Shown: in pieces, positions 1 to 63,260 of the stretch | How positions within the stretch are numbered: the first letter of the stretch is position 1 | Layout: the number at the start of each line of letters is the position of its first letter | Source: Dehalococcoidia bacterium | Lineage (GTDB): Bacteria; Chloroflexota; Dehalococcoidia; Bin125 | Assembly: GCA_965237475.1 (NCBI GenBank) | Contig: OZ250140.1 | Span: 483,549 to 547,548, forward strand | Direction of reading: 5' to 3' | DNA: 64,000 nt | The notes under the pieces: generated by a model | The model's input: only the letters and a program-made list of their open reading frames with translations | The model's database searches: none | Told to the model about the DNA's origin: nothing | Program-made: the position numbers and the translations under genes

Positions 1-4
1 CGTC

Positions 5-934
5 GTGATCGAGAACTACAGCGCTGGGGCCTTCGCCCGCATGGGCTTCCCCTGGGAGCACCTGCGGGAGATCAATCCGTCGCTGATCTACGTCTCCGTC
101 TCCGGCTTCGGCCACGTCGGCCGCGACGCCTCATATCGCACCTGGGGCCCCAGCGCCCAGGCCATCTCCGGCGCCACCGCCATGTCCGGGCTCCCGGACC
201 AGCCGCCCGCCGGCTGGGGCTTCTCCTACCTCGACCACAGCGCCGGCTACTACGCCGCGATCGCCGTCCTGATGGCCCTCCACCACCGCGCCCGCACCGG
301 CGAAGCCCAGCACGTCGACATGGCCCAGATCGAAGCCGGCATGGTCGTCAGCGCCGTCCCGATGCTCGACTACCAGGTCAACGGCCGCACCTACGAGCGC
401 ATCGGCAACCGCTCCCGCCACCCCGCCACGGCGCCCCACAACACCTATCCCTGCGCCGGCGATGACCGCTGGATCGCGATCGCCGTCGACGATGACGTCC
501 AATGGGCCGCGCTCTGCGACGTGCTCGGCCTCGACGCCCTCCGCGACGCTCCCCGCTTCGCGGAGATGGCCGCCCGCAAGGCTCACGAAGACGCCCTCGA
601 CCAGGCGATCGCCGCCGTCACCAGCGAGCGCGACCCCTTCGACCTGATGCTCCAGCTCCAGGAGCGCGGCGTCCCCGCCGGCGTCTGCCAGCGCAATGAC
701 GACAAGCAAGAGCGCGACCCTCAACTCGCCGACCGCGGCTTCTACCCCAGCGCCCCCCACGCCGAGCTCGGCGAGCACCGCTTCGAGGGCCTGCCCATGC
801 AGTTCTCGCACGCCCGCTGGCGGATCGACCGCGGCGCCCCCCTCATGGGCGAGCACAACCACGCCGTTCTCACTGAGCTGCTCGGCTACGACGACGAGGA
901 GCTCGCCACCATGCTCGCGGAGCTCGCCATCTGA
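5..934 (+). CDS. CoA transferase family III (CaiB/BaiF-like), 5' end lies outside the window
   Basis: 309-aa ORF. Family-III CoA-transferase-like sequence (SGFGHVGRDASYRTWGP...GFSYLDHSAGYY). The reading frame is open to the window edge. Its stop TGA overlaps the next gene's ATG (ATCTGATG). Confidence 0.75.
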   Translation: MIENYSAGAFARMGFPWEHLREINPSLIYVSVSGFGHVGRDASYRTWGPSAQAISGATAMSGLPDQPPAGWGFSYLDHSAGYYAAIAVLMALHHRARTGEAQHVDMAQIEAGMVVSAVPMLDYQVNGRTYERIGNRSRHPATAPHNTYPCAGDDRWIAIAVDDDVQWAALCDVLGLDALRDAPRFAEMAARKAHEDALDQAIAAVTSERDPFDLMLQLQERGVPAGVCQRNDDKQERDPQLADRGFYPSAPHAELGEHRFEGLPMQFSHARWRIDRGAPLMGEHNHAVLTELLGYDDEELATMLAELAI

Positions 935-2282: not shown

Positions 2283-2340
2283 CTCTACTCTCCCCCCGCC
2301 GAGCGGGGGGAGATGGAATCCTAGTTGCTCAGAGCATTCC
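2283..2340. repeat. MITE/REP-like element copy A (GC hairpin CTCTCCCCCCG-N5-CGGGGGGAGA plus IS5-IR-like arm)
   Basis: ctctccccccgccgagcggggggagatggaatcctagttgctcagagcattcctaaac. The arm, reverse-complemented, reads TTTAGGAATGCTCTGAGCAA, close to the IS left IR TTTAGGAACGCTCTGAACAA at 42807. Confidence 0.6.
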
Positions 2341-3416
2341 TAAACGGGTGCCAGCGCCGGCAGCTCGCAGGTGAAGGCGAAGTCGATGGCGGCGTGGACC
2401 GGATGCGTCGATCCGGCCAGGCCGCCGCTGAAGACGGCGGAATACATGCCGCCGCCACCGGCGACGATCAGCACGATGTCTTCGGGGCCGCGCAGTGCGG
2501 GGAGGTCGTCGTCGCCGTCGCCGTCGCGCATGGCCCGCTTCGTGGCCCAGCCTCGCATTACTGATCGGGGCGTCACGGCCAGCTCCGCGAGGCGGTCGCA
2601 GACGGCCTCGCGGCTGAGTCCGGCAGCGGCCAAGACACCGGCGTGGATGGGGTTGAGAGCGACGATCACGGGGCCGCGGCCGATCTGCGTGTTGTTGGCG
2701 CCGGCAATGGCGATGGACGCAGCGACGACGCGGAGGATGCGTTCGGGGGCTTGCGGATCGTCGACGTCGGTCGTCATCATCACGGAGTGCGGTGAGTCGA
2801 CGCCGACCAGGGTGACCGCGGACTGGTCGGCGTCGTAGCCGAAGGCGGTGTGTAGCGGCGGGAAGGGGCTCCCTTCCTCATCCTCGGCAAGGCAGCAGGT
2901 GAACTTGCCGGGCTGACCCAAGGCGGCCATGTCGCCGTGGCCGGGGCGGGCGCCGCCGATGTTCATCAGGCAGAGGCGCAGGGCGCGGCCGATGCTGGCG
3001 TTCGCGCGATGCCCCGGGCCGAGCGCACCCCAGCCGGAGGCGATCGGACCGCAGACCTCCCGCGCGGGCCCGTTGACGATGACCACCGGTCCCAGCGCGT
3101 GTGTCGTCGACTGCATGTTGTCGATGTCGAAGTCCGGATCTCCGACTGCCCGCACGGCGGCCAGGACGACAGGGAAGTGCTCGGGGCGGCAACCGGCCAT
3201 GACGGCGTTGATCGCGATCTTCTCGACCGTGGCCTGGCCGGCGCCGATCATGCCGACAATGACGTCCGGGTCGGTCTCTACCCCGGCGAGCAGGGCTTCC
3301 ACCCGCTCCTCAGTGGGGATCACGACCGGCAGGCCGTCGGTCCACTCGCGCATATGGAAGACCTCGAGCGCCGTCGCTTCGTCCGGGGCCTGGTGGCGCG
3401 TGGCGCGCAGGGTCAC
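2340..3416 (-). CDS. conserved hypothetical protein (family not recognised with confidence)
   Basis: 358-aa ORF with coding-like composition. Its ATG overlaps the stop of the upstream ORF (ATGA-type overlap at 3413-3416). Confidence 0.6.
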   Translation of the reverse strand: MTLRATRHQAPDEATALEVFHMREWTDGLPVVIPTEERVEALLAGVETDPDVIVGMIGAGQATVEKIAINAVMAGCRPEHFPVVLAAVRAVGDPDFDIDNMQSTTHALGPVVIVNGPAREVCGPIASGWGALGPGHRANASIGRALRLCLMNIGGARPGHGDMAALGQPGKFTCCLAEDEEGSPFPPLHTAFGYDADQSAVTLVGVDSPHSVMMTTDVDDPQAPERILRVVAASIAIAGANNTQIGRGPVIVALNPIHAGVLAAAGLSREAVCDRLAELAVTPRSVMRGWATKRAMRDGDGDDDLPALRGPEDIVLIVAGGGGMYSAVFSGGLAGSTHPVHAAIDFAFTCELPALAPV

Positions 3417-3943
3417 AGCTTGCGCCCCTCGAGCAGGTCGATGATGCGGGGCGCGGCCTCGCGGGCGACGCGGGCGAGGTTCTCGTCGCCGGTGCCCGAG
3501 CAGGGGTGAGGCAGGACGTAGCGGGGTATAGCGGGCATGCCCTCGGCCTGGGCGATGAAGGCGGCCAGCTCGACGAACGCCTCGGTAATGATGGCGACGG
3601 CGGGCAGGCCGGCCCTGGCGAAGATCGTTCCGTCACGCACGGTGCCGGATGTGCATCCGCCTCAATGCCCCCAGGCAGCTAAGACGGCATCGCACTCCTC
3701 GGTGATGGCGTCGATCAGCTCGCCGGTCACGGGCGCGACGTTGGGCTTTTGGTAGCGGAGCAAGGCGGCCTGCGGCAGCGCGCTCGCCAGTTCCGATTCC
3801 AAGTTGTCCATAAACTTGACGCCGTCGGGGAAGGCGTTCGCGAGCAGGCCGATCCGGATCGGGCCGCTGGTGTCCGCGAAGAGCTCGTAGGGCTCAACGG
3901 GGATGCCTCCCTCGGCAGTGGGATCGAGAAACGTGACAGTCAT
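3413..3943 (-). CDS. selenoprotein candidate (UxxC motif; two track ORFs joined by in-frame TGA at 3662-3664)
   Basis: ORFs 3662..3943 and 3413..3640 are in the same frame, separated only by TGA. Read-through gives ...DAVLAAWGH-U-GGCTSGTVRDGTIFARAGLPAVAI... (U-G-G-C). Perfect SD AGGAGG 6 nt before ATG 3943. Confidence 0.5.
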
Positions 3944-3964
3944 GATGGGCCTCCTGAGAGGATA

Positions 3965-4453
3965 CTAGGGGATCTCGGCCGGGCCTTCCCGATGGATGCC
4001 GAGCACCGCGAGCTGGCGGCCGCCGCCAACGAAGCACGCGACGCAGGTGGAGAGATCGAGGATCTCGTCGTCATCGAACAGCGCCCGCAGGCCCACCCAG
4101 TAGTCATCGTCCATCGACGAGTGGTCGTAGCAGTAACGCTCGGCGAAGTCGATCGCGGCGCGCTCCCGAGCCGTGTACAGCGGGCTCTCGCGATAGTTCG
4201 AGACCTGCGCGTATACCTCTTCGGTCAGATCGTTCTGCATCGCCGATGCAGAGCGGGTGGCCAGTCAAACAGAGCATTGATTGATCTCCGCAATGCGCAT
4301 GCGCACGACTTCCCGTTCGCGAACGGGAAGCTGGCTGTGCTGCAGGACCGCGCGGGAGAGCGCCGTCATCGCGGCCCCCATTTCGGGGCGCGCCTGGAAG
4401 AGACGGGCGCCTTCGGAGCCTTCACCCGGGGCGATGTCGATCCGTGCCATGTC
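3965..4453 (-). CDS. AhpD-like / carboxymuconolactone decarboxylase (CMD) family selenoprotein candidate (CxxU)
   Basis: ORFs 4265..4489 and 3965..4240 are in the same frame, separated by TGA 4265-4267. Read-through gives RIAEINQ-C-S-V-U-LATRS, aligning to the CMD/AhpD 'INGCxYC' redox motif. SD AAGGAG 6 nt before ATG 4451. Hairpin UCUGCAUC-GGC-GAUGCAGA 12 nt 3' of the UGA. Confidence 0.6.
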
Positions 4454-4593
4454 TTGCTCCTTGTTTCGAGACGATACTACCGGCGGCAACTCGCCGCCAC
4501 AACGCTCGGCCTTCCGCTACCCGCGCCCCTGGCCTGCTCGCCGGGCCCCGAGTTGGCGGCCATGCCGCAGCATGAGGGCGCCGCGGCGGCGGA

Positions 4594-5424
4594 CTAGCGC
4601 GCGCGGGTGCCGCCGTCGACGGGGAAGATGCCGCCCGTGATGTAGGAGGCGTCTTCGCTGGCGAGAAAGGCCACCATCGCTGCGATCTCATCGGCTTCGC
4701 CGTAGCGTCCCATCGGCGTCGACGCCGCGAGCCTCGTGTGTACCGCCTCCGGGTCATCCGGGTTAACGCCTCGCTCCATGGCTCGCATCATGCGCGTCTC
4801 AATGGGACCGGGACAGACGGCGTTGACACGGATGCCGTCGCCGACCAAGGCAATGGCCGCAGACTTCGTCAAACTCACGACCGCACTCTTAGTGGCCCCG
4901 TATGCCGCCGCTCGGGAACTGGCTTGGAGCCCGGCGACCGAGGCCGTGTTGATGATCGCGCCCCCGCCCGCTTCCTGCATCACTCGTCCCACAGCCTGCA
5001 AGCCGAAAAAGACGCCCTTGACGTTGACAGCGAAGACCCGATCGAATTCGTCTTCCGGGTAATCCAGCAGCGGTCCAACCCAGCCCTCGATCCCCGCGTT
5101 GTTGAAGAACACATCGATCTGCCCGAATTGGTCGAGTGCCGCCTGGACATACCCGTCGACCTCGCCGGCGACGGTGACATCGGCTGGATGGGTCGCGATT
5201 TGGCCGCCAGCCCGGTGTACCGCTGCCACCGTCTCGTCCAGTTCAGAGTCCGGCAAATCAACCGCCAGGATGCGGGCGCCCTCTGATGCGAAGCGGACGG
5301 CCGTCGCCCGGCCGATGCCCCCGGCGGCTCCCGTAATCACGACGACCCTTCCCTCGAATCGGTCTGCCATCGGCAATCCTCGCTCCTCGTTCAGGTGGCG
5401 GCGGAGCATACCAGCGGGCGCCAC
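4594..5424 (-). CDS. SDR family oxidoreductase (short-chain dehydrogenase/reductase)
   Basis: 276 aa. TGAAGGIGRATA Rossmann motif; typical SDR length and motifs. Confidence 0.85.
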   Translation of the reverse strand: MAPAGMLRRHLNEERGLPMADRFEGRVVVITGAAGGIGRATAVRFASEGARILAVDLPDSELDETVAAVHRAGGQIATHPADVTVAGEVDGYVQAALDQFGQIDVFFNNAGIEGWVGPLLDYPEDEFDRVFAVNVKGVFFGLQAVGRVMQEAGGGAIINTASVAGLQASSRAAAYGATKSAVVSLTKSAAIALVGDGIRVNAVCPGPIETRMMRAMERGVNPDDPEAVHTRLAASTPMGRYGEADEIAAMVAFLASEDASYITGGIFPVDGGTRAR

Positions 5425-5680
5425 GGTCAGTGCACGAGCAACTGATCGTGGGATTCATCGATCGGCGGCGGCGCGGTCCCGGTCGAGGCCGCGCCCGCCC
5501 CCGCGCGGGGAGCGGCGGCAGCGCGGGCGGGCAGGAGGAAGATCTGCCGACTCCAGAGTCCGCCTCGCGGTTCGCGTGCTGACCCCGCTCCGGCGACCCA
5601 GCGACCGAGTGGCTACCGATCTGACCGATCGGTTAGCCTCCGCAACCTTGGGGTTGCTGCAGGATTCTGGAGGCGCTGGC

Positions 5681-6646
5681 GTGGCCGACATTCAGGTGGA
5701 GATGGGGATTGGCCCCCCGACGGGAGCGGCATTCCCGTCGTGGGAGCTCCGCGATCAGGCAGGGCAGGCGATCGATCTGATGGCCGATCGGGCCGGCCGG
5801 GGCGCGCTGGTCGTGTTCCATCGCAGTGCCGCCTGGTGACCGTTCTGTAAGACGCAGCTCGTGGAGCTGCAGAAGGTGGCGGCGGACCTGGAGGCCGAGG
5901 GGATCGCCCTGTATGCGATCAGCTACGACCCTCCGGACGTGCTTGCCGGTTTCGCCGAGCGGCATGGCATCACCTATCCCCTGCTCAGCGACGCGGGCAG
6001 CGGACTGATTCGCGAGCTCGGCCTGCTCAACGAGGCGGCGAGCGGGCGCGTCGAGGGCATCCCGCATCCCGGCGTGTTCGTCCTCGACGCGGACGGCACG
6101 GTGGCCGAGAAACACTTCTACGAGAGCTACCGGGAGCGAGACACCGGCGCGGGGCTCCTGCAACACGTCCTCGGGATCGCCGCCACGCACGACGGGCCCC
6201 AGACGCAGGTGGCGTCCGATGTGGTCCAGCTCCAGGCTGAATTCGACGCATCCAGCTATACGTGGGGGCAGCGGCTCTGGCTGACCGTCAGTTTGACCAT
6301 CGCCCCCGGCTACCACGTCAACGGGCGTCCCATCCCGGTCGGTTACGTGCCGCTGGAGATCGAGATCGACCCACCGGATCGGGTGACGGTCGGCGCCCCG
6401 CGCTGGCCGACGCCGAAGCCGTTCCACGTGGAGGGGCTCGACGAGCAGTTGCACGTGTTCAGCGGCGAGATCCGCGTCTCCGTGCCGGTCACGTTCATGA
6501 CCGTGGACGCCGGCGAATTGGACGTGCGTGGACGCGTCACACTGCAGGCCTGCACGGCCAGGGAGTGCCTGTTGCCAGACTCGCTGAGCTTCGAGTTGCG
6601 GCTGCCGGAGACACCCCTGGTTGAGCGCCCCGCGCCGCGCAATTAG
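5681..6646 (+). CDS. thioredoxin-fold peroxiredoxin/redoxin-like selenoprotein candidate (W-U-P-F-C) fused to a DsbD-alpha-like domain
   Basis: The frame is continuous across TGA 5837-5839. Read-through gives ...GRGALVVFHRSAAW-U-PFCKTQLVELQK..., a UxxC where thioredoxin-fold proteins have WCxxC. GTG 5681 sits 7 nt after GGAGG. The C-terminal half carries 'QACTARECLLP', resembling the DsbD N-terminal domain Cys pair. Hairpin GCAGCUC-GUG-GAGCUGC 16 nt 3' of the UGA. Confidence 0.6.
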
Positions 6647-6747
6647 GGGTGTCGCGTGGGCGGACGAGTTCGCACACGATGGCGGGATCGTGGCGGCACG
6701 GGGATCTGTTGTTGTCGGGCGGAAGAGGCTGCCCCCCGCGCCGCCGC

Positions 6748-9769: not shown

Positions 9770-10516
9770 TCAGCAGTGAAACAGCAGGGATCTTGCAGGG
9801 GGTCGGCAGGGATTCGGAGCGCAAGTTCGGCTGCAGGTCCGTGTGCTCCGGCCGGCGTCTGGCTTCCGCGGGCTCGGTGTCGGCGCCGCTTCGGCCAGCG
9901 GTTCGGTAGGGGTCCGTTCGGACCGGCATCGTCCGTGATCATCTGATCGCCCGGGGGAGAACGACTGGGCGTGTCGCAAGAAGAGGTCGCGCGGCAGTTG
10001 CGGCGGCCCCAGTCCCACGTCTCGAAGTGTGCGCTGGGCGAGCGCCGCGTGGACGTGATCGAGCTCGCCGCGTTCGCGGATTGCTACGGGCAGGCGCTGA
10101 CTTACTTCTCCGGCGAGACGGCCTGGCAGGAGCCGCCGGCGCCGAGCGGCCGACGCAGCCGCCTCGGTGATGCCGCGCTCCTCCATGACCAGGAAGCTGG
10201 CGCAGTCGGTCAGGCTCCAGCGCTGATCGGGTCGAGCCGCGTGGCGCGCAAGCGCTGCTCGAAACTGCTCATCCGACTGAGCGACTATTTCCACCTCAGG
10301 GCGGCTCTGTAGCTCTTCGACCAACAATACGGCTCGTCGCCGTGAGACTTGACCGGCTCTGGCTACAAAAGCGAGCACTTCGACCAGCACCGTTTGGGTT
10401 GTCAGGATCTGAATCTCGCCGAGTGCTTCAGTCACCGACTCGGCCCGATTCATGAGCTGGTCGGCAGTTCCGAGCTCGGCAACCCAGTAGCCGGTGTCGG
10501 CGAAGGCCGTTCGCAT
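9770..10516 (-). CDS. PIN-domain toxin (VapC-like); PIN domain about 10120..10516, C-terminal 100 aa of the ORF low-complexity (possible frameshift or late stop)
   Basis: N-terminus MRTAFADTGYWVAEL...SLTDCASFLVMEERGI carries PIN acidic residues. Its start overlaps the antitoxin stop by 1 nt (TGATG). Confidence 0.55.
   Translation of the reverse strand: MRTAFADTGYWVAELGTADQLMNRAESVTEALGEIQILTTQTVLVEVLAFVARAGQVSRRRAVLLVEELQSRPEVEIVAQSDEQFRAALARHAARPDQRWSLTDCASFLVMEERGITEAAASAARRRRLLPGRLAGEVSQRLPVAIRERGELDHVHAALAQRTLRDVGLGPPQLPRDLFLRHAQSFSPGRSDDHGRCRSERTPTEPLAEAAPTPSPRKPDAGRSTRTCSRTCAPNPCRPPARSLLFHC
9947..10312 (+). pseudogene. XRE-family HTH protein fragment (first helix missing)
   Basis: ...LGVSQEEVARQLRRPQSHVSKCALGERRVDVIELAAFADCYGQ... 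is the second half of an HTH_XRE. A stop lies immediately upstream in frame. It overlaps the convergent PIN ORF. Confidence 0.35.
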
Positions 10517-12273: not shown

Positions 12274-15360
<3,087 letters not shown>

Positions 15361-15389
15361 GTCCTCGAGTGAGGCTTCATCGAGGAGGT

Positions 15390-16169
15390 TTATTTTGCTG
15401 ACAGGATCTGTTCCACTTCGTCCGGGCGCGACCAGAGGGCCACCTCGGAATGCTGCTCCACAAGGGCGAAGTCCTCGTCACGCCACACATCTTGCGTGTC
15501 GTCGAATAGTGAGACGAACACCAGGTCCGACCGGTCGGCCTTCAGGTTGCTGAGGTCGACGCAGCCTGCCAGCACATGCTCCGCGATGCGATGTGTCGCG
15601 CCGCGCGTGCCGGTGCTGAGTAGGAAGATCATCGATGTGCGCGACGCGGAGCGGACGCGATAGTCCACAGTCCATTCGCGCGCCGAGCGCCCCACGGCTT
15701 TGATCTGACGCTCGACACTGAATCTTCGGCCGCGCAGCCACTCATCCACATCATCTGCGATGGACGCCGCACCGCGCGAGCGGAACGTGAACCAGATGTC
15801 GGTGACTCGCACCGCGCCGAGCGCTACCCGATTGACAGCATCTGCAACGGCTGCAACACCCTCGCAGCGCGCCACCAACCGGCCGCGATCAAACTCCAGG
15901 CCTTGAGTCCGGCAGATATCGGTGATCAATGAGCGTTGATTTTGTGAGAGGTGTTCGGCGATCGACTGCATCCGCAGCCATCCAGTCGCGTCGCCGTGGT
16001 CCGTGACGACATGCTCGACACCCCGGTCCAGCACGAACACGTCGACGGCGCCACCGTCGGGATACGTTAGGGGCGTTCGGACGCGGACTCCCTCGCTTGG
16101 CGCCGGAGCACATTCGTAGATGGCGGGGAGCGTGATTCGCAAGGAGTCGCACAAGAGGTCTGGTGTCAT
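15390..16169 (-). CDS. hypothetical protein, possibly DUF1828/DUF1829-type (from memory)
   Basis: About 260 aa. Its ATG overlaps the stop of the upstream ORF (ATGA at 16166-16169). Sits between hsdM and hsdR. Confidence 0.45.
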
Positions 16170-16651
16170 AACGCGAGCTCCGCCTGCCACTCAGGATTAT
16201 GCAGGATACCCCAATGAATGATCTTCGTCTCCGCGCAAAACTGCTCCCAGACCTCGAGAGGCTGATCCCACGTGGCTGTGATGTCCCCGGGCTTGTAGGC
16301 CCACTCGGCCTTGAACTCTTCCGTCCAGCGGTGCTTGTGGGTGCCGTGCGGGCAGTCACAGGCGACGCGCCGCCCGCGTTTCCGTGGGCACGACGGGTTG
16401 TGGTGGAGAAGGTCGCCAAGATCGAGGCCGACGATGCGGCGGGCCCGCCGGTGAACCAGTGTGAAAGTCAGCTTGCCAGAATGCGGGTTCCACCATCCCT
16501 CAACGAACAACGGCCAGTCGGCTTCTGACTGCACGCCGGCGCGGAACCCCTGCGCCGCCGAGTGGAACTCGTCTGACGTCCAGACGATATCGCCGGTGAT
16601 CCGTTTCGTGTCATCGGCGAGGAGCGATTCGAATTCTTGCTGGGTGAGCAT
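16166..16651 (-). CDS. hypothetical protein with a Cys/His cluster (HHNPSCPRKRGRRVACDCPHGTHKHRW)
   Basis: 161-aa ORF, translationally coupled to the downstream gene. Possible zinc-binding or His-Me-finger-like nuclease motif (speculative). Confidence 0.45.
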   Translation of the reverse strand: MLTQQEFESLLADDTKRITGDIVWTSDEFHSAAQGFRAGVQSEADWPLFVEGWWNPHSGKLTFTLVHRRARRIVGLDLGDLLHHNPSCPRKRGRRVACDCPHGTHKHRWTEEFKAEWAYKPGDITATWDQPLEVWEQFCAETKIIHWGILHNPEWQAELAL

Positions 16652-16782
16652 GGTAGAAGGCTCGGTCCGCGGGCCGGCGTCGCTCGCCAGGGGTCAGCTC
16701 GCGAGCCGCGCAGCTAGGGCTGCCTGTCGCGCGATCGATGGGGCGCAGTGGTTAGGCGAGCGTAACCTGTGCGGCATTCCAC

Positions 16783-17409
16783 TCAGGCGGCCGATCCGTT
16801 CGCTTGTGCTGGTTGCTCGACCATCGTCCTTAGGTCGCTGATCATCCATTCGAGCATCTCGAGATTGCGAAGTGTGGTCGTCTCGTTGCCCACGCTCCGT
16901 CGAATCGTCAATAAGAACTCGCTGAAGGTCGTGACAAATTCCATTCCATTCTCTAGAGTGGGCTGGCTGGAGTCGATCGCCGAAGAGGTCGCATTCTCCA
17001 TCGCGTAGGCGAACTGCATCAAGTTGTTGAACGCACGGATGACTTCGTCGCTCGCAAACAGCGATAGCTTGAACGCAGCCTGACGATACTCGATCGACTG
17101 CATCACTTCGGCGCCACTCTTCGCCTTGCGACCCTTCCGCCGATTCGGTTCGCCGGAGTCACCCAAGCCCTCGCTGAATATGGCGATAAACGGCGCGAGA
17201 ATGTTGTTGTAGACGTCGACACGCTCGTCCCTGATCTCCTCTTCGAGCTTCTGTGCCCTCTGGCGAGCCGCAGCTTCCTTCGCCTGAGCCGATTCGATCC
17301 GTCGTTGGAACACCCACAGTATGCCGGAAGCGAGGACGATCAGAATCGGCGTGACAATCGATCCGATCGCGGTGATGATCTCGAGGGTGGTCGGCGCGCC
17401 GGGATCCAT
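16783..17409 (-). CDS. hypothetical single-pass membrane protein with a coiled-coil; lower GC than surroundings
   Basis: TM helix LEIITAIGSIVTPILIVLASGILWVF followed by a charged coiled-coil region (QAKEAAARQRAQKLEEEIRDERVD). The local sequence is AT-richer than its neighbours. Confidence 0.5.
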   Translation of the reverse strand: MDPGAPTTLEIITAIGSIVTPILIVLASGILWVFQRRIESAQAKEAAARQRAQKLEEEIRDERVDVYNNILAPFIAIFSEGLGDSGEPNRRKGRKAKSGAEVMQSIEYRQAAFKLSLFASDEVIRAFNNLMQFAYAMENATSSAIDSSQPTLENGMEFVTTFSEFLLTIRRSVGNETTTLRNLEMLEWMISDLRTMVEQPAQANGSAA

Positions 17410-17557
17410 CAGGTCGCTCCCTCCCCGATTCTTGTGCCGAATGTGGCGGCCGATCCGAGTCCAATCGAAATGAGTCGGGGCAAGAGTGTGTCCCAAGTGG
17501 TGTCATGTGCGCCCGATGGACGGCACGGATGCAGAGCCTGTGAGTGCGGTCGCGGGA

Positions 17558-19027
<1,470 letters not shown>

Positions 19028-19148
19028 GTTGGTCTACCTGCGCTTCCTCGGTACCAGGAAGTCGTGTGAGGGTTGTCGCAGGGCGAGGATACTGCCACTA
19101 CCCCAGCAGCCGCCAGATCCCGATCGGGCCGTTGTTCAGCGCACCGTG

Positions 19149-24330: not shown

Positions 24331-27300
24331 TTGGCTCATTCTGATCATCAGAGTGAGCGAGTGCGCGGGAGAGGGCGATCCATGGGCGAACTCACGCGGC
24401 GCGCGCGGCGTGTGTGTGCGGCGGTCTTCGGCATTGTCCGCCATCGCCCCACGTTGCTGCTCGTCGGAGTTGCAGGAGTTGCCCTGCTCGGCGCCTTGCT
24501 GTCCAGCCCCTTGTCCGCCCATGGCCAGAGCTTCGACCAGGTGTCCGCGGACACCACCGCCCGCTGGATCGTTGAGGGCGGCCGCGTCTCGGCCGGCGGT
24601 GGCAACGGCTTGACCAAGTTCGCCCAACTTTCCGATGCCGGTGCGATCGACGAAGGCCACAGCGTGTCTGCCGTGGTGTGGAGCACTGCGCCGCACGGTC
24701 CGTCTGGCATCGGGATTAGGGGCGCCTACTCGTCCATCGCCAACACCCCGACGAGCGGCGGGCCCGCGACCACTCAGACAACGCCGGCTGAGGTGCTAGT
24801 CACCCCGACCTTTCTGAGGATCGCGGAGGCCGGCAGCGGTAGCTATTGGGTCTGGTTGCGAACCGCGCCCAGCGCCGATGTGGCGATCGTGATCAGCGCG
24901 GGTGCGGGCGTCGCGGCCTACCCGGCGGAGGTCAAGTTTACGCCTACGAGCTGGCGGAGCGCTCAGATCATCACCGTCAGCGCGCCGGACGACGCGGACA
25001 CGACCAACGAAGACATCTTGATCACGCATGAAGTCAAGATCGGCAGCGCGTCCGAGTACCTAAACGTGGTCGTGCGGAGCGTGCACGTGGTGATAGAAGA
25101 CGACGATGATGCCGGGATCTACGTGTCGCCGACCCGGATGCGGATCGCCGAAGGCCACTCGGCGACGATTGACGTGAAGCTGGAAGCTGCGCCGACGGCG
25201 GATGTGACGGTGACTCCGACGGCGACGACGACGACAGGCGACAGCTCGGTTCCGGACTTCGATTCGTTGACGTTTACCAGCAACGATTGGAACACGGCGC
25301 AACAGCTCACGCTGTCCGCCCCGCAGGACGCCGGCATTAGCAGCGAGGGCTTCAGGATTACGTTCACGGCCGGGAGTAGCGACAGCAACTACAACATCAC
25401 CAAATACAGAGGACCGGAGGTCGTCGTCGAGTTCGCCGACGACGACGGCCGTTGGGCGTGTCTGAGCGTCCGGCCTAAGCGTCTGTATGTGCCGGAGGCT
25501 GGGACAGCCACGTTCAATGTTGCGCTCTGCACCAAGCCCAGGGCCAGACGTGCGGGTGGTTCGCCCGACGTCGGGATCAGCATCTCCGCCGGCGGGGACG
25601 TGACGGTCGACCCGAACAGGCTCCGCTTCGACGAGTCGAACTGGGCGTCGGGGATCACTGTGACCGTCAGCGCCGGAGCCGATGAGGACGGCGCCAATGA
25701 CGAGGTCACCGTCAACATTCGAGGCAGTGGGGGTGGCGATTCCCTCTACGCCGGCACGGAGGCTCAGGTCCCGGTCATCGTCATCGATGACGACAGCGGC
25801 GGGATCATCAACCCAACTGACATCACGGTTCCCGAGGGTGGCAGGGGCTACTACAAAGCCATGGTCATCTCCGAACCCTCGGGTGTCGTGACCATCTCCA
25901 TCTCAGCGGGCCCGGGCGTGACCACGAACGTCTCCCGGCTCAGCTTCACGCCCTCAAACTGGGAGACGCCCCAGTACGTGATCGTCAGCGCGCCCGCCGA
26001 CTCCGTCACGGAGAACGTCGGCCTCCAGTTGTCCCATTCGATCGGCGGCAGCTCGAGCGAATATGACGCCATCACGCTGCCGGATGTAATGGTCACAGTG
26101 GCCGACAGTGGAGCTGGTCCGGTCAATTTCGCCCGGGCAGATCAGGCCGACGGCACCCAACTGAGCTGGAGTCCGCCGCCGACGCCGATCACCCCCGGCC
26201 TCCGCACCGAGGTCTACCAGTACGAGCTCGAGCGATCCGTCGATGGCGGCGCCTTCGCGTTGCTGACCTGCGTCGACGGGGACTCGGGCAGCCTCCTCGA
26301 CGAGAGCGTCGTGGAGGGCACGGCGTACCGCTACCGGGTCCGCGCCGTCTACTACGCCACCACCCGCTGTGCAGCGTTGCGAGACATCGAGCTGACGTCG
26401 GGGGCACTTGTTCAGTGTGAGGCCTCCGGTGTCTGGTCCGACGGCGACACGATCTGGGTCGCGCACGAATCCGATCAGACGCTCTACGCATACGATCTGG
26501 CGACGGGCGACGCGCAAGCCGACGATGACATCACACCGAACACTGCCTACACGGATGTCGACGGTGGCCTGTGGGGCGACGCAACGCGCATCTGGACCGT
26601 GACCGCGAAGCACCCCCGACCCAGTCTCCCTGAACAAGTCGCGTTTGTCCCATATCGGATATCCGACGGCGCGTTCCTCTCGAGCGATCTCCTACCTACC
26701 AATGGCGACATGCGCCCCATCGGCTACCACCCGAGTGGCGTGGACCGTGCAGCGCTACCAGCGGCCGAGGCGTTCTTCAGCGACGGTTCGACGTTCTGGG
26801 CCGCCGCGTCGGGGCGTGACACGTTGTTCGCCTACCGAGCGTCCGACGGCGAGCGCGACTACGACAAGGACATCCTCGTGCCGGACACGGTCTGTCAGCA
26901 CGATCAGGTCGTGGGCATCTGGCACGATTCATCGCAGGGTCTGTTATATCTGGCGACGCAGTGCTCCACGCGAAAGCTGTTTGCGCTTGACCTGTCAGAC
27001 GGGCCGGGGAACGCGCACCACATCCCCGTTCACGACGTCACGTTGCCTCCTGCGCATGGCGAGATTAAAGACTTCTGGTCCGACGGCGACATTGTCTGGG
27101 TCAGTTCCAACACCAGCTCTACAACCACCAGGGACAAGCTGCTCGCCTACCCGCTGCACAACAACCGCCAGTACTCGGGCTGGTCCTCGCCGCCTGCCGT
27201 GGAGTCGGTCACGGTGGCCGAGGCCTCGATCACGCAGACCGAGGCGACGGCAACGGCCACGGTCAGCGAGCCCAACGGCGGACTCGTCCACCTCCGTTAC

Positions 27301-30300
27301 TCAGACACAACTGACCCCGAGAACTGGACGCTCACCTCTCTGACGGCGGAGATCGGCTCGACGACGGTCGACTTCCTGCTGACCGGCCTCACCGCGAACC
27401 GTGAGTATACGGTGGAGGCGTCCTTCGACAGCAGCCTCCCGGCGGCGCGTACGAAGACGGCCACGTTTAGGACGCTGCCGCCCGCTATCGAGTCCGTCGG
27501 CGCGATCGCAAAGACGCAGACCACGGCCACCATCAGCGCCATCATCAGCGCTCCGAACGGCGACTCGAAGAGGGTCCAGCTCCGCTACCGGATCAAGGAC
27601 GAGACGGCGTGGCAGGCAACGGACCCAGTAGATACGACCAATGATCACGCGGACTTCGCGCTGAGCGACCTCACCTCCGGGACCGACTACGAGCTGGAGG
27701 CCTCGTTCGACAGCAACTTCCCGACCGACGAGACGACTACCGGCAAGTTCGCGACCGAACCGCCCAGCGTGGATTCGGTCGTCGCGAGCGGCGAGACGCA
27801 GACCGGGGCGACGATCACCGTGAATGTCATCGAGCCAAACGGCAGCCTCGTCTACATCCGATTCCGCGCCGGCGCGACCTGGAAGTCCGAATCCGCGGAG
27901 GTCGCGTCCGGCGAGGTCTCGCACGAGTTCACCCTGATCGATCTGACGTCGGATACCACTTACCAGGTGGACGCGTCGTACGACAACACCTTCACCGACA
28001 GTGACGCGATCCGCTCTGACAGCTTCAAGACGCTGCCGCCGAATGTGGAATCGGTCGACGTCAGTGACGAGGGACAGACGAGTGCGACCGTCACGGTCAC
28101 CGTCGAAGCGCCCAACGGCAGTGAAGTGCAGCTACGCTACCGCACCGGTACCGGTGGCTGGAGGACGACCCGCAAGCCCGTACTCGCCGGCGAAACATCC
28201 GTCGAGTTCGCGTTGCGCGGGCTGATCTCCGACCGCGAATACGAGGTCCAGGCCTCCTACGATTCGAGCTTCCCGGACACCGATGCCACGCTGTCGACGA
28301 CCTTCACAACCCTGCCGCCCAGCGTCTACTCCGTCATCGTTCGCGACAAGACCGAGACGACCGCGAACGCCAAGATCAAGATCGCCGCGCCGAACGGCGA
28401 CTCGCAGACCGTCCGGCTGCGCTACTCCCCCACAGCGGCGGAAAGCTGGAGCACCGCCGAGCCGGCCACCAGCACTGACGCAGACGCGACGATCCCGCTC
28501 CAGAGTCTGACCGCCGCCACGCAGTACAAGGCGGAGGCCACGCTGGCAAGCGACTTCACCTCCGGTGTGCGCTCGACCGTCTTCTCCACCCTGGGCGATG
28601 ACGCAATCGTCGAGGACATCTTTGTGTACGAAGAAGACATCCACCAGACAGAAGCCTGGGCGACGATCATCGTCGCCAACGTGGGCGGAGTGCCGAGACA
28701 CGTCTACCTTCGGTACCGCACCGCCGGCGATACGCCGGGAAGCTGGAACGCAACGCTGCTGGAGGCCGATACCGATCCGATCGCTCAAGATACTGCGACG
28801 ATCAGGATCACGAATCTGATCGCCGGCACGCAGTACGACGTGCAGGCGTCGCTGGACTCGACGTTTGCCACCGGCACTCAGCAGACCACCTTCACGACCG
28901 ACGCGCCGGACCCGGAGATCGTGAGTGTGATCGCCACCAGCGACTCGTCGACCAGGGCCACGGTCACGGTCACCATCAACCACCCGGATGGCAGCAGCGT
29001 CTACGTGGGTTACCGCACGACGGGCGACCCGCCCGGCTCATGGAGCGCGCCCGTTGATTTCGCCGCCGACACGTCCAGACACTCGCTGACTCTGTCTGGC
29101 CTGTCTCCGTCGACAGAGTATGAAGTGACGGCGGTGTTCGGCACCCCGTTCCCCGCGACACCACGCGTGTCGGACATCTTTTCCACCCTGGCGTTCGATG
29201 CCACGCTCACCGACGTACGGGTGACGAACATCGCGCAGTCGGGCTCGGGCGGCGCAGCCAAGGCGACGGTCACCGTCGCAATCGCCAACGCAAACAACAT
29301 GGCTCGGATGATTTACCTGCAATATCGCGAGGTCGGCGCCGCCGCCTGGAGTGACCCACCCCTGGAAGTCAGCGTCACTGAAACTGCCACGCGTGACATC
29401 ACGACCTTGATGGTCAGCTCGAACTACGAGCTGCAGGCATCGCTCACGGACGACTTCACCAGCCCTGCCGCAACCAGCTTTTCTACGCCGGACGTGGTGA
29501 AGGTCAGCGTCGACGTAACCGAGCAGACCGCGAAGGTCACCGTCGAGATCGGCAACCCCGGGAGTGCGGAGAAGACGGTGCACCTCCGCTACGGTCCCGT
29601 CGATGAAACCGAAACGCAGACAAGCACGAAGAGCGAAAGGACAACCAAGACGAGCAGGAGCAGCACCGAGACGAAGAGCAGCACCGAGACGAAGAGCAAG
29701 GAGGGGACAACGACCGGCGACAGTGTCGAGATCCCCCTGCCAGCCCTGATTCCCGACCAGATGTACTCGGTCGAGGCGTCGCTCGATGACAGCTTCAATC
29801 GGGGCGTAAGACGCGCAGAGTTCCGCACAGAGGCGGGCACCAGCCCGATCATCACCACCCCCGGCGGCGGTGGCGGCGGCGGTGGCGGCGGTCCACCGCC
29901 CAAGCCGGTCCCATCCGAAGCCGATTTCACCTGGAACGTCACCCGCGACATCGACTCACTGCACGGGGGGAACGACCAGCCCACAGGGATTTGGGGAGAC
30001 GGTGAGCTGCTCTGGGTCCTGCAGAATGCTACCTCCGGCCCCGACGCCATCTTCGTCTACGACCTTGAAACCGGCGAACGCGTGGAGGACCGCGAGTTCG
30101 AACTCGACCACAGAAATCGCTTCTCGCACGGCATCTGGTCCGACGGCGAAACCATCTGGATCTCCGACAGCGGCCGCGACCTGCTCTTCGCCTACGACAT
30201 CGACACCGGGGAACGCTTGCCCGAGCTGGATATCGAACTCCACGAGGACAACCGCGACCCGCGTGACATCTGGTCCGACGGTGAGGTGATCTACGTACTC

Positions 30301-31683: not shown

Positions 31684-31923
31684 CAGGCTGACATCGGATC
31701 GTCGGACGGTGCGTCGCCGAGGCGGTTGATGCGGTCCGCGTGCGGGACGACGGCCGTTCCGTGTCCGCCTGTCAGCGTCGAGTTCCATCGGCCTTCATTG
31801 CTCGCGGCGGAAGCTCGCAACACGTCCGTTGAGGACCGCCCTGCTGCCCCTAGGCGCCAACTGGTCGCCAACATGTCGCCGCCGCCTGACGTATATTCAA
31901 CCCACTTGATGGGGGGATGAACC

Positions 31924-38692: not shown

Positions 38693-38828
38693 GCGTTCTC
38701 CATCCTCGCTCAGGCTCGCGAACCCCGAGACTAGCCGACGTGCAAGTCGCGCCGCTCAGATCGACCCACGAGCCCTCCCAGGGGGGGCTTCGGCCCCAAC
38801 GCTGTTTCAGGGCGTCTTGCAAGCGCAG

Positions 38829-59268: not shown

Positions 59269-59790
59269 CGTTTAGCCCCAACCCGCCCTGTCGCGTTCGC
59301 GCCCCTGTGCCTGGACCAGATGGATGGCGCCAGCTACCCGCCACACACAAAAGACAGGGCCAGCTAGCGCCGTTGCGCCTGCGAAGGCGGCCGACGCTCG
59401 TGAGCTCAGGAGTGGCGGTGATCTGGCATGTAGCGAGAAGTGGATGCAGCCGGACCACGGTGACTAGCACGGGCCCGAGCAGCGCGAACATCGACCAGAA
59501 CAGACCGATCAGCCGACGACAGCAGTGATCCATCGATTGCACCTGCGCTTTCGCTTGCACCCCGTGGCTCGCAGGAGCCCGGACAAGGTCGATTCGGCCA
59601 AATTACTTGATTACCGATTTACGATAGCTCTAGTGTCCCTGCGGCGCAACAATGCGTGTCAGCGTGCGTCGCATGTTGCCGGAGGCGGATCGACCGTCTG
59701 AGTTGTTCGCAGCATGCCCCGCCCTGCGGGCCCCGCGCCGTCGTCACGGCCGTAAGGCTGGACCGGATCCATCACTGTGCCTCGGCGGAA

Positions 59791-63205: not shown

Positions 63206-63260
63206 GCGCGGTATCCGCCACCGGGGAGGAGGCGCAGCGATCGATTCGCGGCGTTATCAC

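What the first reader, a model, noticed from the sequence alone, without database searches (positions are those of the whole stretch)
3965..4453. AhpD/CMD-family gene with CxxU (C-S-V-U) read through an in-frame TGA; strong hairpin 12 nt downstream
ORFs 4265..4489 and 3965..4240 are one frame interrupted only by TGA 4265-4267. The read-through 'RIAEINQCSVULATRS' aligns to the conserved 'INGCxYC' redox motif of carboxymuconolactone-decarboxylase/AhpD proteins, with Sec replacing the second Cys. AhpD-like selenoproteins are an established class. UCUGCAUC-GGC-GAUGCAGA (8-bp stem) begins 12 nt 3' of the UGA. A perfect SD AAGGAG precedes ATG 4451.
Basis: partly seen in the sequence, partly recalled or inferred. 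Interest (0 to 1): 0.55.

Follow-up and report, generated by a model that had tools for sequence, protein, structure and literature searches.

The report
Selenocysteine AhpD-like redox gene with SECIS
This is one real gene for a small redox protein whose in-frame TGA most likely encodes selenocysteine, guided by a conserved RNA hairpin just downstream. It is a well-supported new example of a selenoprotein class known since 2005, and public annotations wrongly split it into two short ORFs.

Summary
On the minus strand, 4450..3965 is a single 161-codon reading frame interrupted only by TGA 4267-4265.

- **Domain:** The Pfam CMD/AhpD domain runs across the TGA.
- **Sec/Cys exchange:** In 89 family members examined, the TGA column is the second Cys of C-x-x-C: 36 have TGA and 53 have TGC/TGT.
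- **Selection:** Both halves of the gene show third-codon-position variation in the same frame.
- **Hairpin:** All 36 TGA forms carry an 8-bp (two: 7-bp) stem with a 3-nt loop starting exactly 12 nt after the UGA. No Cys form does. Across 31 distinct sequences, 99.2% of stem cells pair and 5 of 8 pairs show compensatory changes. The hairpin meets all four published bacterial SECIS criteria.
- **Sec machinery:** None is in the 64-kb window. One circular 3.14-Mb Dehalococcoidia contig carries both an 88%-identical TGA ortholog and SelA. Another relative has SelA 8 kb from its ortholog.
- **Neighbours:** Two adjacent genes, a UGSC-family gene and a Prx-like/DsbD_N gene, are also TGA-interrupted.

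This is a new member of a known kind. The subfamily has Arg where canonical AhpD-like proteins have the relay His, so its biochemical role remains inferred.

The parts
4457..4462 (-). Shine-Dalgarno AAGGAG, 6 nt upstream of the start codon
   Evidence: Read directly from the sequence. It is conserved as AAGGAG, CAGGAG or GAGGAG in orthologs.
3965..4450 (-). Complete AhpD-like/CMD-family selenoprotein gene: ATG 4450-4448, 161 sense codons including Sec62, stop TAG 3967-3965
   Evidence: One frame with a single internal TGA. Pfam CMD spans residues 22-104. Third-codon positions vary at 37 of 61 columns upstream and 53 of 86 downstream of the TGA, against 9-24 at positions 1 and 2, in 7 distinct orthologs.
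4274..4276 (-). Codon for Cys59, the first residue of the C-S-V-U redox motif
   Evidence: Invariant across the family. It aligns to Cys48 of PA0269.
4265..4267 (-). In-frame UGA, codon 62, read as selenocysteine. It sits at the second Cys of the family's CxxC motif.
   Evidence: TGA in 36 and TGC/TGT in 53 of 89 family members at this column. It is followed by C, giving UGAC.
4253..4264 (-). 12-nt spacer between the UGA and the SECIS upper stem
   Evidence: Read directly from the sequence. The spacer length is the same in all 36 TGA forms.
4231..4255 (-). Bacterial SECIS hairpin. The 8-bp upper stem pairs 4252-4245 with 4241-4234, the loop GGC is at 4244-4242, and two lower pairs are 4255/4231 and 4254/4232.
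   Evidence: - **Energy:** The centroid structure has -12.9 kcal/mol.
- **Conservation:** The 19-nt core is invariant in 11 Dehalococcoidia sequences, even at four 4-fold-degenerate third positions.
- **Covariation:** 99.2% of cells pair, 5 of 8 pairs carry compensatory changes, and 0 of 500 shuffles reach the observed values.
- **Control:** The hairpin is absent from all 53 Cys forms.
- **Model fit:** It meets the bSECIS criteria of PMC13188914.
3413..3943 (-). Next gene in the operon: a UGSC-family selenoprotein (motif WGH-U-GGC) with in-frame TGA 3664-3662. Its ATG lies 21 nt after the AhpD-like stop.
   Evidence: Pfam UGSC PF24696 matches residues 17-172 across the TGA (E 4.5e-41). NCBIfam NF041046 gives E 2.6e-30. 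The TGA is conserved in L001-L004 and L007. The gene is syntenic in all Dehalococcoidia loci.
2340..3416 (-). Third gene of the cassette: a 358-aa protein of unknown family. Its GTG start overlaps the UGSC stop codon (GTGA).
   Evidence: Syntenic in all Dehalococcoidia loci at 84-95% identity. It has no Pfam, NCBIfam or PDB relative.
5681..6646 (+). Divergently placed Prx-like (AhpC/TSA) plus DsbD_N selenoprotein, motif W-U-P-F-C, with in-frame TGA 5837-5839. Its hairpin GCAGCUC-GUG-GAGCUGC is at 5854-5870, 14 nt after the UGA.
   Evidence: The AhpC-TSA domain matches residues 15-143 across the TGA at residue 53 (E 1.8e-26), and DsbD_N matches residues 185-305. The TGA is conserved in L001, L002, L009 and L010. 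The gene is present only in the closest relatives.

Best explanation
Window 4450..3965 (minus strand) is one gene for a 161-residue thiol/selenol oxidoreductase. It has the AhpD-like/carboxymuconolactone-decarboxylase (CMD) fold and the active-site motif Cys59-Ser-Val-Sec62.

**Recoding (inferred from established bacterial Sec biology).** UGA62 is decoded as selenocysteine. As the ribosome reaches the UGA, the hairpin 12 nt downstream (8-bp stem, GGC loop) is bound by the Sec-specific elongation factor SelB carrying Sec-tRNA(Sec). This delivers Sec in competition with release factor 2. The hairpin lies inside the coding region and fixes the peptide S-A-S-A-M-Q at residues 67-72.

**Protein function (inferred).** Sec sits at the position of the second Cys of the AhpD CxxC motif. 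From my own knowledge of the M. tuberculosis AhpD literature, that residue is the attacking nucleophile. Cys59 would then resolve the selenenyl-sulfide intermediate. The protein most likely shuttles reducing equivalents to a partner: a peroxiredoxin-type protein or the co-transcribed UGSC selenoprotein with its 358-aa partner.

**Shown here:** the single frame, domain continuity across the TGA, Sec/Cys exchange at that column, purifying selection on both halves, an RNA structure specific to the TGA forms with covariation, and SelA in the genomes of relatives.

**Inferred:** SelB binding, actual Se insertion, and the redox partners and substrates.
For: 1. **Domain continuity.** CMD PF02627 spans the TGA (residues 22-104, E 1.9e-13).
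2. **Sec/Cys exchange.** Of 89 family members, 36 have TGA and 53 have TGC/TGT at the second Cys of CxxC. The TGA forms come from Dehalococcoidia and from Acidimicrobiia/Actinomycetota MAGs.
3. **Coding signature on both sides.** Variable columns by codon position are 17/9/37 of 61 upstream and 24/20/53 of 86 downstream.
4. **Hairpin tracks the TGA.** In TGA forms, 34 of 36 have 8 of 8 stem pairs and 2 of 36 have 7 of 8. Cys forms have only 1-5 of 8. L021 and L023 encode almost the same peptide (CLNTRAASAMAQ against ULNTRAASAMQQ) yet keep only 3-5 pairs.
5. **Covariation.** 99.2% of cells pair, 5 of 8 pairs show double changes, 0 of 500 shuffles reach the observed values, and slid controls pair at only 18-57%. 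L077 has a completely different stem sequence at the same position.
6. **bSECIS criteria all met.** The criteria come from PMC13188914. The loop is 3 nt and starts GG, the stem is 8 bp, the UGA-to-loop distance is 20 nt, and the energy is -12.9 kcal/mol.
7. **TGA is otherwise a stop here.** For example, the CoA-transferase 2..934 ends at TGA after reaching the end of its Pfam profile.
8. **SelA in relatives.**
   - L013 has SelA (TIGR00474, 520 bits against a cut-off of 268) 8.3 kb from its ortholog.
   - The circular contig ctg341725_111x_c (3,136,402 bp) holds both SelA and an 88%-identical TGA ortholog.
   - A SelA also lies on a 3,638,100-bp contig, the same length as the record that carries L012.
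9. **Neighbouring recoded genes.** Two adjacent genes are also TGA-interrupted at family redox motifs.
10. **Fold.** A model of a Cys homolog (pLDDT 85) matches Atu0492 and PA0269 with TM 0.70-0.78.
Against: - No selA, selB, selD or tRNA-Sec lies in the 64-kb window. The window's own genome could not be searched.
- Only SelA was found in relatives. SelB, SelD and tRNA-Sec were not located.
- The hairpin's folding energy is unremarkable against shuffles of this G+C-rich sequence.
- The 3-nt loop is at the lower limit of the bSECIS model.
- Rfam has no matching family.
- The relay His that PMC3141380 calls invariant in AhpD-like proteins is Arg66 here, and Arg in 87 of 89 family members. An AhpD-type peroxidase or AhpC-reductase activity is therefore not assured.
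- No curated selenoprotein NCBIfam model reaches its cut-off.
- There is no experimental evidence of Se incorporation.
Confidence: 0.92

Rival explanations
1. The locus holds two separate small genes, or a pseudogene. In this reading the TGA is a true stop, giving a 61-aa N-terminal product and an independent 91-aa product from ATG 4240. This is how public gene callers annotate it.
For: Every public record calls it as 61 aa plus 91 aa, named 'hypothetical protein' or 'alkylhydroperoxidase family enzyme'. TGA is the normal stop for other genes in the window.
Against: - One Pfam domain spans the junction.
- Full-length Cys homologs exist.
- The TGA is retained in 36 sequences down to 43% protein identity, with purifying selection on both sides.
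- ATG 4240 lies inside the hairpin's 3' arm and has no SD before it.
- A nonsense pseudogene would not keep a covarying hairpin at a fixed distance.
Confidence: 0.03
2. The UGA is read through without selenium. A near-cognate tRNA would insert Cys or Trp, or Cys would be inserted through the Sec pathway when Se is scarce. The hairpin would act only as a ribosome pause or RF2-blocking element.
For: The UGA-C context is a weak terminator, and a stable hairpin sits 12 nt downstream. SelB, SelD and tRNA-Sec were not located in any relative.
Against: - The hairpin has the loop features (leading GG or GU) and spacing of SelB-dependent bSECIS elements.
- SelA, which has no known role outside Sec-tRNA synthesis, is present in the genomes that carry the gene.
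- Three different redox genes in the locus place TGA exactly at catalytic Cys columns.
Confidence: 0.04
3. The hairpin is a by-product of the encoded peptide (S-A-S-A-M-Q), or a generic mRNA stability or attenuation element unrelated to decoding.
For: The peptide is conserved, and folding energy is not exceptional against shuffles.
Against: Cys forms L021 and L023 encode the same A-A-S-A-M peptide with synonymous codons that break the stem, leaving 3-5 of 8 pairs. L077 keeps the structure with a different peptide and stem sequence. Presence of the structure tracks the TGA perfectly: 36 of 36 against 0 of 53.
Confidence: 0.01

Closest known systems
AhpD-like selenoproteins of marine metagenomes ('AhpD-like 1', COG2128, and 'AhpD-like 2', pfam02627; Zhang & Gladyshev 2005/2008; PMC1088965, PMC2398784)
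   Same: Both have the CMD/AhpD fold family, a CxxU motif with Sec at the second Cys, many Cys homologs, and a SECIS directly downstream of the UGA. A Prx-like/AhpD-like selenoprotein gene neighbourhood has also been reported.
   Different: This subfamily comes from soil- and sponge-associated Dehalococcoidia and from Acidimicrobiia. It scores below the cut-offs of the curated models: TIGR01926 47 against 81.8, NF053654 52.7 against 310, and NF041047 15.7 against 110. It has Arg at +4 instead of His.
AhpD-like structural family: PA0269 (2O4D/2IJC/7XW1) and Atu0492 (2GMY)
   Same: These are the best sequence-profile hits (E 1.8e-16 to 9e-14) and the best fold hits (TM 0.70-0.78). They share the helix-turn-helix with C-x-x-C and the relay Glu (E47 corresponds to Glu36).
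   Different: The second Cys is Sec. The 'invariant' His55 is Arg66, and Tyr50 is Val61. PA0269 itself is only a weak peroxidase (PMC3141380).
Mycobacterium tuberculosis AhpD (1GU9)
   Same: Both belong to the CMD superfamily and have a CxxC redox centre. From my own knowledge of the AhpD literature, the second Cys (Cys133) is the nucleophile that reduces AhpC, and that is the position occupied by Sec here.
   Different: The relationship is very distant: the Foldseek E-value is about 2 and TM about 0.5. The topology differs in placement of the catalytic hairpin (PMC3141380). No lipoamide/DlaT-type partner is evident in the neighbourhood.
Bacterial SECIS consensus (bSECISearch model) and the E. 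coli fdhF SECIS
   Same: Both are stem-loops within the ORF immediately 3' of the UGA, with a G at the first loop position followed by G or U. The UGA-to-loop distance of 20 nt falls within the 16-37 nt range, and the energy is below -7.5 kcal/mol.
   Different: This element has a minimal 3-nt loop and a perfect 8-bp stem, with no bulged U. From my own knowledge, E. coli fdhF has a larger loop with a bulged U.

Membership tests
Bacterial selenoprotein gene (Sec-UGA plus bSECIS) | In-frame UGA that aligns with Cys in homologs | tested here: met
   36 sequences have TGA and 53 have TGC/TGT at the same column, the second Cys of CxxC.
Bacterial selenoprotein gene (Sec-UGA plus bSECIS) | Coding-type conservation on both sides of the UGA, in one frame | tested here: met
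   Variable columns by codon position are 17/9/37 upstream and 24/20/53 downstream. The Pfam domain spans the UGA.
Bacterial selenoprotein gene (Sec-UGA plus bSECIS) | bSECIS model: loop 3-9 nt, upper stem 4-16 bp, G in the first two loop positions, UGA-to-loop distance 16-37 nt, MFE at or below -7.5 kcal/mol (PMC13188914) | tested here: met
   The loop is GGC, the stem is 8 bp, the distance is 20 nt, and the energy is -12.9 kcal/mol.
Bacterial selenoprotein gene (Sec-UGA plus bSECIS) | SECIS structure conserved with covariation and specific to the Sec forms | tested here: met
   99.2% of cells pair, 5 of 8 pairs are compensatory, and 0 of 500 shuffles reach the observed values. All 36 TGA forms have 7-8 of 8 pairs, while the 53 Cys forms have 1-5 of 8.
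Bacterial selenoprotein gene (Sec-UGA plus bSECIS) | Sec machinery (SelA, SelB, SelD, tRNA-Sec) in the same genome | tested here: inconclusive
   None is present in the 64-kb window. SelA is present in relatives: on the same contig in L013 and on the same circular 3.14-Mb contig as an 88%-identical ortholog.
Bacterial selenoprotein gene (Sec-UGA plus bSECIS) | Selenium actually incorporated at the UGA | not testable with these tools
   This needs 75Se labelling or mass spectrometry.
CMD / AhpD superfamily (Pfam PF02627) | Score above the Pfam gathering threshold | tested here: met
   50.7 bits against 23, covering residues 22-104.
AhpD-like structural family (PA0269/Atu0492 type, PMC3141380) | All-helical AhpD-like fold | tested here: met
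   The model of Cys homolog P0005 (44% identical to the window protein; pLDDT 85, pTM 0.81) matches 2GMY, 2IJC, 2O4D and 7XW1 at TM 0.70-0.78. Profile E-values are 1.8e-16 to 9e-14.
AhpD-like structural family (PA0269/Atu0492 type, PMC3141380) | Catalytic Cys-X-X-Cys in the helix-turn-helix | tested here: met
   C59-S-V-U62 aligns to C48-A-Y-C51 of PA0269, with Sec in place of the second Cys.
AhpD-like structural family (PA0269/Atu0492 type, PMC3141380) | Proton-relay Glu (Glu36) and the 'invariant' His four residues after the second Cys (His55) | tested here: not met
   The Glu is present (E47, in 87 of 89 members). The His is replaced by Arg66, which is Arg in 87 of 89 members, both Sec and Cys forms.
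Curated (seleno)protein NCBIfam families: TIGR01926 peroxidase-related enzyme, NF053654 YciW-related, NF041047 GSU3128 | Score above the curated cut-off | tested here: not met
   47.0 against 81.8, 52.7 against 310, and 15.7 against 110.
AhpD (functional sense) | Peroxidase or AhpC-reducing activity | not testable with these tools
   This requires a biochemical assay.

The most novel reading that the evidence does not exclude
The gene may represent a CMD subfamily that has not yet been curated, with Arg replacing the relay His. In this reading, Sec and Cys have been exchanged repeatedly within the subfamily.

Its SECIS hairpin is almost identical in Chloroflexota (UCUGCAUC-GGC-GAUGCAGA) and Actinomycetota (GCUGCAUC-GGC-GAUGCAGC), although the proteins are only about 48% identical. 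That would imply either an ancient Sec form or cross-phylum transfer of the gene together with its SECIS.

In Dehalococcoidia the gene would be one component of a dedicated three-selenoprotein redox module. The module would comprise the AhpD-like-U protein, the UGSC-U protein with an unannotated 358-aa partner that has no solved structural relative, and the Prx/DsbD_N-U protein, rather than these being independent antioxidant genes.
Probability: 0.3. Interest if true: 0.45.

Novelty: new member of a known kind. Interest (0 to 1): 0.3.

Why it matters
- **Annotation.** Public annotations of these Dehalococcoidia and Acidimicrobiia MAGs split this gene and its two selenoprotein neighbours into short 'hypothetical' ORFs. 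Recognising them corrects the proteomes and shows that these lineages use selenocysteine.
- **A natural SECIS experiment.** The family offers an unusually clean comparison. 36 TGA forms carry a covarying hairpin at a fixed distance. 53 Cys forms lack it, and some encode the same peptide with the stem dissolved. This makes a compact training or validation set for SECIS predictors.
- **Function.** The clustering of three recoded redox genes with a widespread protein family of unknown function points to a testable functional module.

None of this changes what is known about how Sec is decoded.

Tried and rejected
- **Rfam:** Neither the gathering threshold (whole window) nor a permissive E-value search (3300-6700) gave a SECIS or other credible family. 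The weak hits are noise.
- **tRNA search:** ARAGORN found no tRNA or tRNA-Sec in the window or in 36 related loci.
- **Folding energy against shuffles:** Not informative in this G+C-rich DNA. I rejected it as a significance test and used comparative evidence instead.
- **Mechanical scan for TGA-bridged ORF pairs:** It returned 274 pairs, mostly noise in a high-G+C genome. It did flag the Prx-like gene.
- **Pfam scan of 20 further window ORFs:** No Sec machinery was found.
- **Exact look-up of the window's 91-aa piece:** Not on record, so the window's own contig could not be extended.
- Only SelA in L013 hit. The absence of SelB and SelD hits says little, because only about 20 kb per genome is held.
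- **The 358-aa neighbour:** It has no Pfam, NCBIfam or PDB sequence hit. Its confident model has no PDB fold match, so its function remains unknown.
- **Genome-wide TGA reassignment (code 4 or 25):** Considered and rejected, because ordinary genes here end at TGA and homologs have Cys, not Trp or Gly, at the site.
Full report
**1. The observation**

The gene lies on the minus strand. Translating 4450..3965 gives one frame of 161 sense codons with a single internal stop. The product reads MARIDIAPGE...RMRIAEINQCSV*LATRSASAMQNDL...GPAEIP*.

The sequence gives these coordinates directly:
- The start ATG is at 4450-4448.
- AAGGAG is at 4462-4457, 6 nt upstream of the ATG.
- The TGA is at 4267-4265.
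- A 12-nt spacer, CUGGCCACCCGC, occupies 4264-4253.
- The stem arms are UCUGCAUC (4252-4245) and GAUGCAGA (4241-4234), around the loop GGC (4244-4242).

RNAfold adds two lower pairs (4255/4231 and 4254/4232), and the centroid energy is -12.9 kcal/mol. So the description is accurate.

Taken alone, the hairpin is not statistically impressive. Z-scores against dinucleotide shuffles range from +0.39 to -0.90. The window holds 70 perfect 8-bp hairpins with 3-10-nt loops over 128,000 strand positions. That gives roughly a 1% chance of one starting within about 20 nt of any given site. The case therefore rests on comparison with relatives.

**2. One gene, not two**

With the TGA replaced by Cys, the Pfam CMD domain PF02627 matches residues 22-104, straight across codon 62 (E 1.9e-13, 50.7 bits against a cut-off of 23).

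A protein search found two kinds of relative:
- Close relatives (73-96% identity) are called only as the 91-aa C-terminal piece.
- Relatives at 42-47% identity are mostly full length (159-170 aa; two are truncated) and carry D/G/Q-C-x-x-C where the window has Q-C-S-V-TGA.

I fetched the DNA around the close relatives and aligned it. The TGA is present in every one. Codon-position analysis of seven distinct orthologs shows a coding signature in the same frame on both sides. Variable columns at codon positions 1/2/3 are 17/9/37 of 61 upstream and 24/20/53 of 86 downstream. This rules out a decaying pseudogene and two unrelated ORFs.

TGA is otherwise an ordinary stop here. For example, the CoA-transferase at 2..934 reaches the end of its Pfam profile and then terminates at TGA. 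Genome-wide reassignment is therefore excluded.

**3. Sec/Cys exchange across the family, and the lineage**

A scan of GTDB species genomes with a family alignment returned 589 relatives, of which the best 80 were kept. The six best (86-95% identity) are Dehalococcoidia/Chloroflexota MAGs, which identifies the window's lineage. The rest (42-50% identity by local tblastn) are mainly Acidimicrobiia, other Actinomycetota and Mycobacterium.

I read the codon at the second Cys of the motif in all loci plus the window. 36 have TGA and 53 have TGC or TGT. The TGA forms include 21 of the fetched GTDB loci, mostly labelled Acidimicrobiia or other Actinomycetota MAGs. Sec/Cys alternation at a catalytic Cys column is the classic signature of a selenoprotein family.

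**4. The hairpin is a SECIS**

All 36 TGA forms have a hairpin in exactly the same register: a 12-nt spacer, an 8-bp stem (7 bp in two) and a 3-nt loop. The loop is GGC in all but L077, where it is GUU.

In the 11 Dehalococcoidia sequences, the 19-nt core is invariant. This holds even at the 4-fold-degenerate third positions of TCT, GCA, TCG and GCG, while flanking codons vary freely.

Between clades the stem covaries:
- U-A changes to G-C at the first pair.
- U-A changes to C-G or U-G at the third pair.
- L077 has an entirely different stem (UCGCGCC/GGCGCGA) at the same place.

On 31 distinct sequences:
- 99.2% of stem cells form standard pairs.
- 5 of 8 pairs show changes on both sides.
- 0 of 500 column shuffles reach the observed values.
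- Sliding the 3' partners by 1-3 columns drops pairing to 18-57%.

The Cys forms serve as the control, and they form only 1-5 of the 8 pairs. The most telling cases are L021 and L023. They encode nearly the same peptide as their Sec relatives (CLNTRAASAMAQ against ULNTRAASAMQQ), but through synonymous codons that dissolve the stem to 3-5 pairs. The structure is therefore selected at the RNA level, and only when the codon is UGA.

The element satisfies every criterion of the published bacterial SECIS model (PMC13188914):
- Loop of 3-9 nt: here 3 nt.
- Upper stem of 4-16 bp: here 8 bp.
- G in the first two loop positions, usually followed by G or U: here GG.
- 16-37 nt from the UGA to the loop: here 20 nt.
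- MFE at or below -7.5 kcal/mol: here -12.9 kcal/mol.

Rfam has no matching family.

**5. Sec machinery**

The window contains no tRNA gene. Pfam scans of 20 further ORFs found no sel genes. The window's own contig is not in the look-up collection, so its genome could not be searched. Relatives could be searched:
- **L013.** A tblastn against all held loci found SelA in L013, a Chloroflexota MAG whose ortholog is 86% identical with the TGA and hairpin. SelA lies 8.3 kb from the gene. It scores 520 bits on the SelA equivalog TIGR00474, against a cut-off of 268.
- **Circular 3.14-Mb contig.** A search with that SelA listed relatives, including P0046. P0046 lies on the circular contig ena:ERZ25072384:ctg341725_111x_c (3,136,402 bp). 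The same contig carries the split AhpD-like and UGSC cassette. Its gene is 88% identical to the window's at the protein level, with the same TGA and hairpin.
- **L012.** P0044, another SelA, lies on a 3,638,100-bp contig. That is the same length as OZ219765.1, which holds ortholog L012.

SelB, SelD and tRNA-Sec were not located. Only about 20 kb per genome is held, so their absence from the data is uninformative.

**6. Independent support from the neighbourhood**

The next gene downstream (3943..3413) is a UGSC-family protein interrupted by TGA 3664-3662, with the motif WGH-U-GGC. Pfam UGSC spans residues 17-172 (E 4.5e-41), and NCBIfam NF041046 gives E 2.6e-30. The TGA is conserved in orthologs.

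A Prx-like protein lies divergently upstream (5681..6646, plus strand). It combines an AhpC/TSA domain with a DsbD_N domain and is interrupted by TGA 5837-5839 in the motif W-U-P-F-C. The AhpC-TSA domain spans residues 15-143. Its hairpin GCAGCUC-GUG-GAGCUGC starts 14 nt after the UGA, and the TGA is conserved in L001, L002, L009 and L010.

Three genes within 3.3 kb each place TGA at a family redox Cys, and two of them are followed by very similar hairpins. This is hard to explain without Sec decoding.

The cassette SDR / AhpD-like-U / UGSC-U / 358-aa protein is syntenic in all Dehalococcoidia loci. The Actinomycetota Sec forms sit in other contexts.

**7. What the protein is**

A family profile finds Atu0492 (2GMY, E 1.8e-16) and PA0269 (2O4D/2IJC/7XW1, about 1e-14) as the nearest solved structures. 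INGCAFC and INGCAYC align to IN-x-C-x-x-[C/U].

An AlphaFold model of the Cys homolog P0005 (pLDDT 85, pTM 0.81) matches the same structures at TM 0.70-0.78. The CxxC sits at the start of a short helix.

PMC3141380 defines the AhpD-like family by a relay of Glu36, Cys48, Tyr50, Cys51 and His55, and describes the two Cys and the His as invariant. In this protein:
- The Glu is kept (E47).
- Cys48 corresponds to Cys59.
- Cys51 corresponds to Sec62.
- His55 is Arg66, and this position is Arg in 87 of 89 family members, both Sec and Cys forms.

No curated (seleno)protein NCBIfam model reaches its cut-off. So the protein is a clear member of the CMD/AhpD superfamily with a CxxU centre. It belongs to a subfamily that departs from the canonical relay. 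Its peroxidase or AhpC-reductase activity is therefore an inference, not a finding.

From my own knowledge of M. tuberculosis AhpD, the second Cys (Cys133) is the nucleophile. That fits Sec occupying this position.

**8. Comparison with what is known, and novelty**

AhpD-like CxxU selenoproteins were described in 2005. The Sargasso Sea study found 27 sequences (PMC1088965). In the GOS data they are among the most abundant selenoprotein families: AhpD-like 1 has 299 sequences and AhpD-like 2 has 70 (PMC2398784). That paper also reports UGSC-containing selenoproteins and a Prx-like/AhpD-like gene pair. A 2026 review lists all of these.

The finding is therefore a new member of a known kind. Three things are new in a modest way:
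- The lineage: soil- and sponge-associated Dehalococcoidia, and Acidimicrobiia.
- The Arg-for-His subfamily.
- The fact that every public record splits the gene into 61-aa and 91-aa 'hypothetical' or 'alkylhydroperoxidase' ORFs.

**9. Verdict**

My confidence that this is a Sec-encoding gene with a functional bSECIS is about 0.92. My confidence in the specific redox role is considerably lower. Interest is 0.3: the case is solid and tidy, useful for annotation and as a SECIS test set, but not surprising to a specialist.

Noticed in passing
window 3413-3943 (minus); TGA 3662-3664: A second selenoprotein gene lies directly downstream in the same operon. It is a UGSC-family protein with the motif WGH-U-GGC instead of UGSC. 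Its TGA is conserved in five orthologs. RNAalifold predicts a longer stem-loop starting about 13 nt after the UGA, but without covariation support.
   Followed up: partly
window 5681-6646 (plus); TGA 5837-5839; hairpin 5854-5870: A third selenoprotein gene is a Prx-like AhpC/TSA domain fused to a DsbD_N domain, with the motif W-U-P-F-C. Its 7-bp, GUG-loop hairpin lies 14 nt after the UGA and closely resembles the AhpD-like SECIS. The gene is present only in the closest relatives (L001-L003, L009, L010). The mechanical ORF start, GTG 5861, lies in the hairpin loop.
   Followed up: partly
window 2340-3416 (minus): A 358-aa protein is translationally coupled to the UGSC gene through a GTGA overlap.
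- It has more than 6,200 homolog clusters, all 'hypothetical', in Dehalococcoidia and in Alpha- and Gammaproteobacteria MAGs.
- It has no Pfam or NCBIfam family.
- Its AlphaFold model is confident (pLDDT 83, pTM 0.86), but no PDB fold matches (best TM 0.26-0.30).
- Several Cys and His residues are invariant.
- It may be the 'Unknown_1' domain reported fused to UGSC proteins in the GOS study. That was not tested.
   Followed up: partly
L021 and L023, about 10180-10235 (Cys forms), compared with L024, L028 and L018 (Sec forms): These Cys-form orthologs encode almost the same peptide downstream of the site as their Sec relatives. Synonymous changes have broken the SECIS stem, leaving 3-5 of 8 pairs. 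They look like recent Sec-to-Cys conversions with SECIS decay.
   Followed up: yes
L077, about 10180-10235: This Acidimicrobiia Sec form has a SECIS with a completely different stem sequence (UCGCGCC/GGCGCGA) and a GUU loop, at the same distance from the UGA. It is the strongest single case of structure kept without sequence.
   Followed up: yes
window 61325-63253 (minus); TAA at 61961-61963: An SBP_bac_5 (ABC substrate-binding) gene is interrupted by an in-frame TAA. The ortholog in L001 is an intact 653-aa protein. This is probably a pseudogene or an assembly error.
   Followed up: no
window 12274-19033 (minus), 42840-43826 (plus), 24331-31683 (plus), 52069-59271 (minus): The window also holds a type I restriction-modification system (HsdR 12274-15477, HsdM 17558-19033), a DDE transposase, and two giant ORFs of about 2,450 and 2,400 aa that were not examined. 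Family III CoA-transferase paralogs occur at 2-934, 877-2250, 31921-33123 and 37475-38755.
   Followed up: no
L019 and L026 (record titles): Two MAG contigs that carry the Acidimicrobiia-type Sec form are titled 'uncultured Bifidobacterium sp.' in their records. This looks like a taxonomic mislabel of the bins.
   Followed up: no
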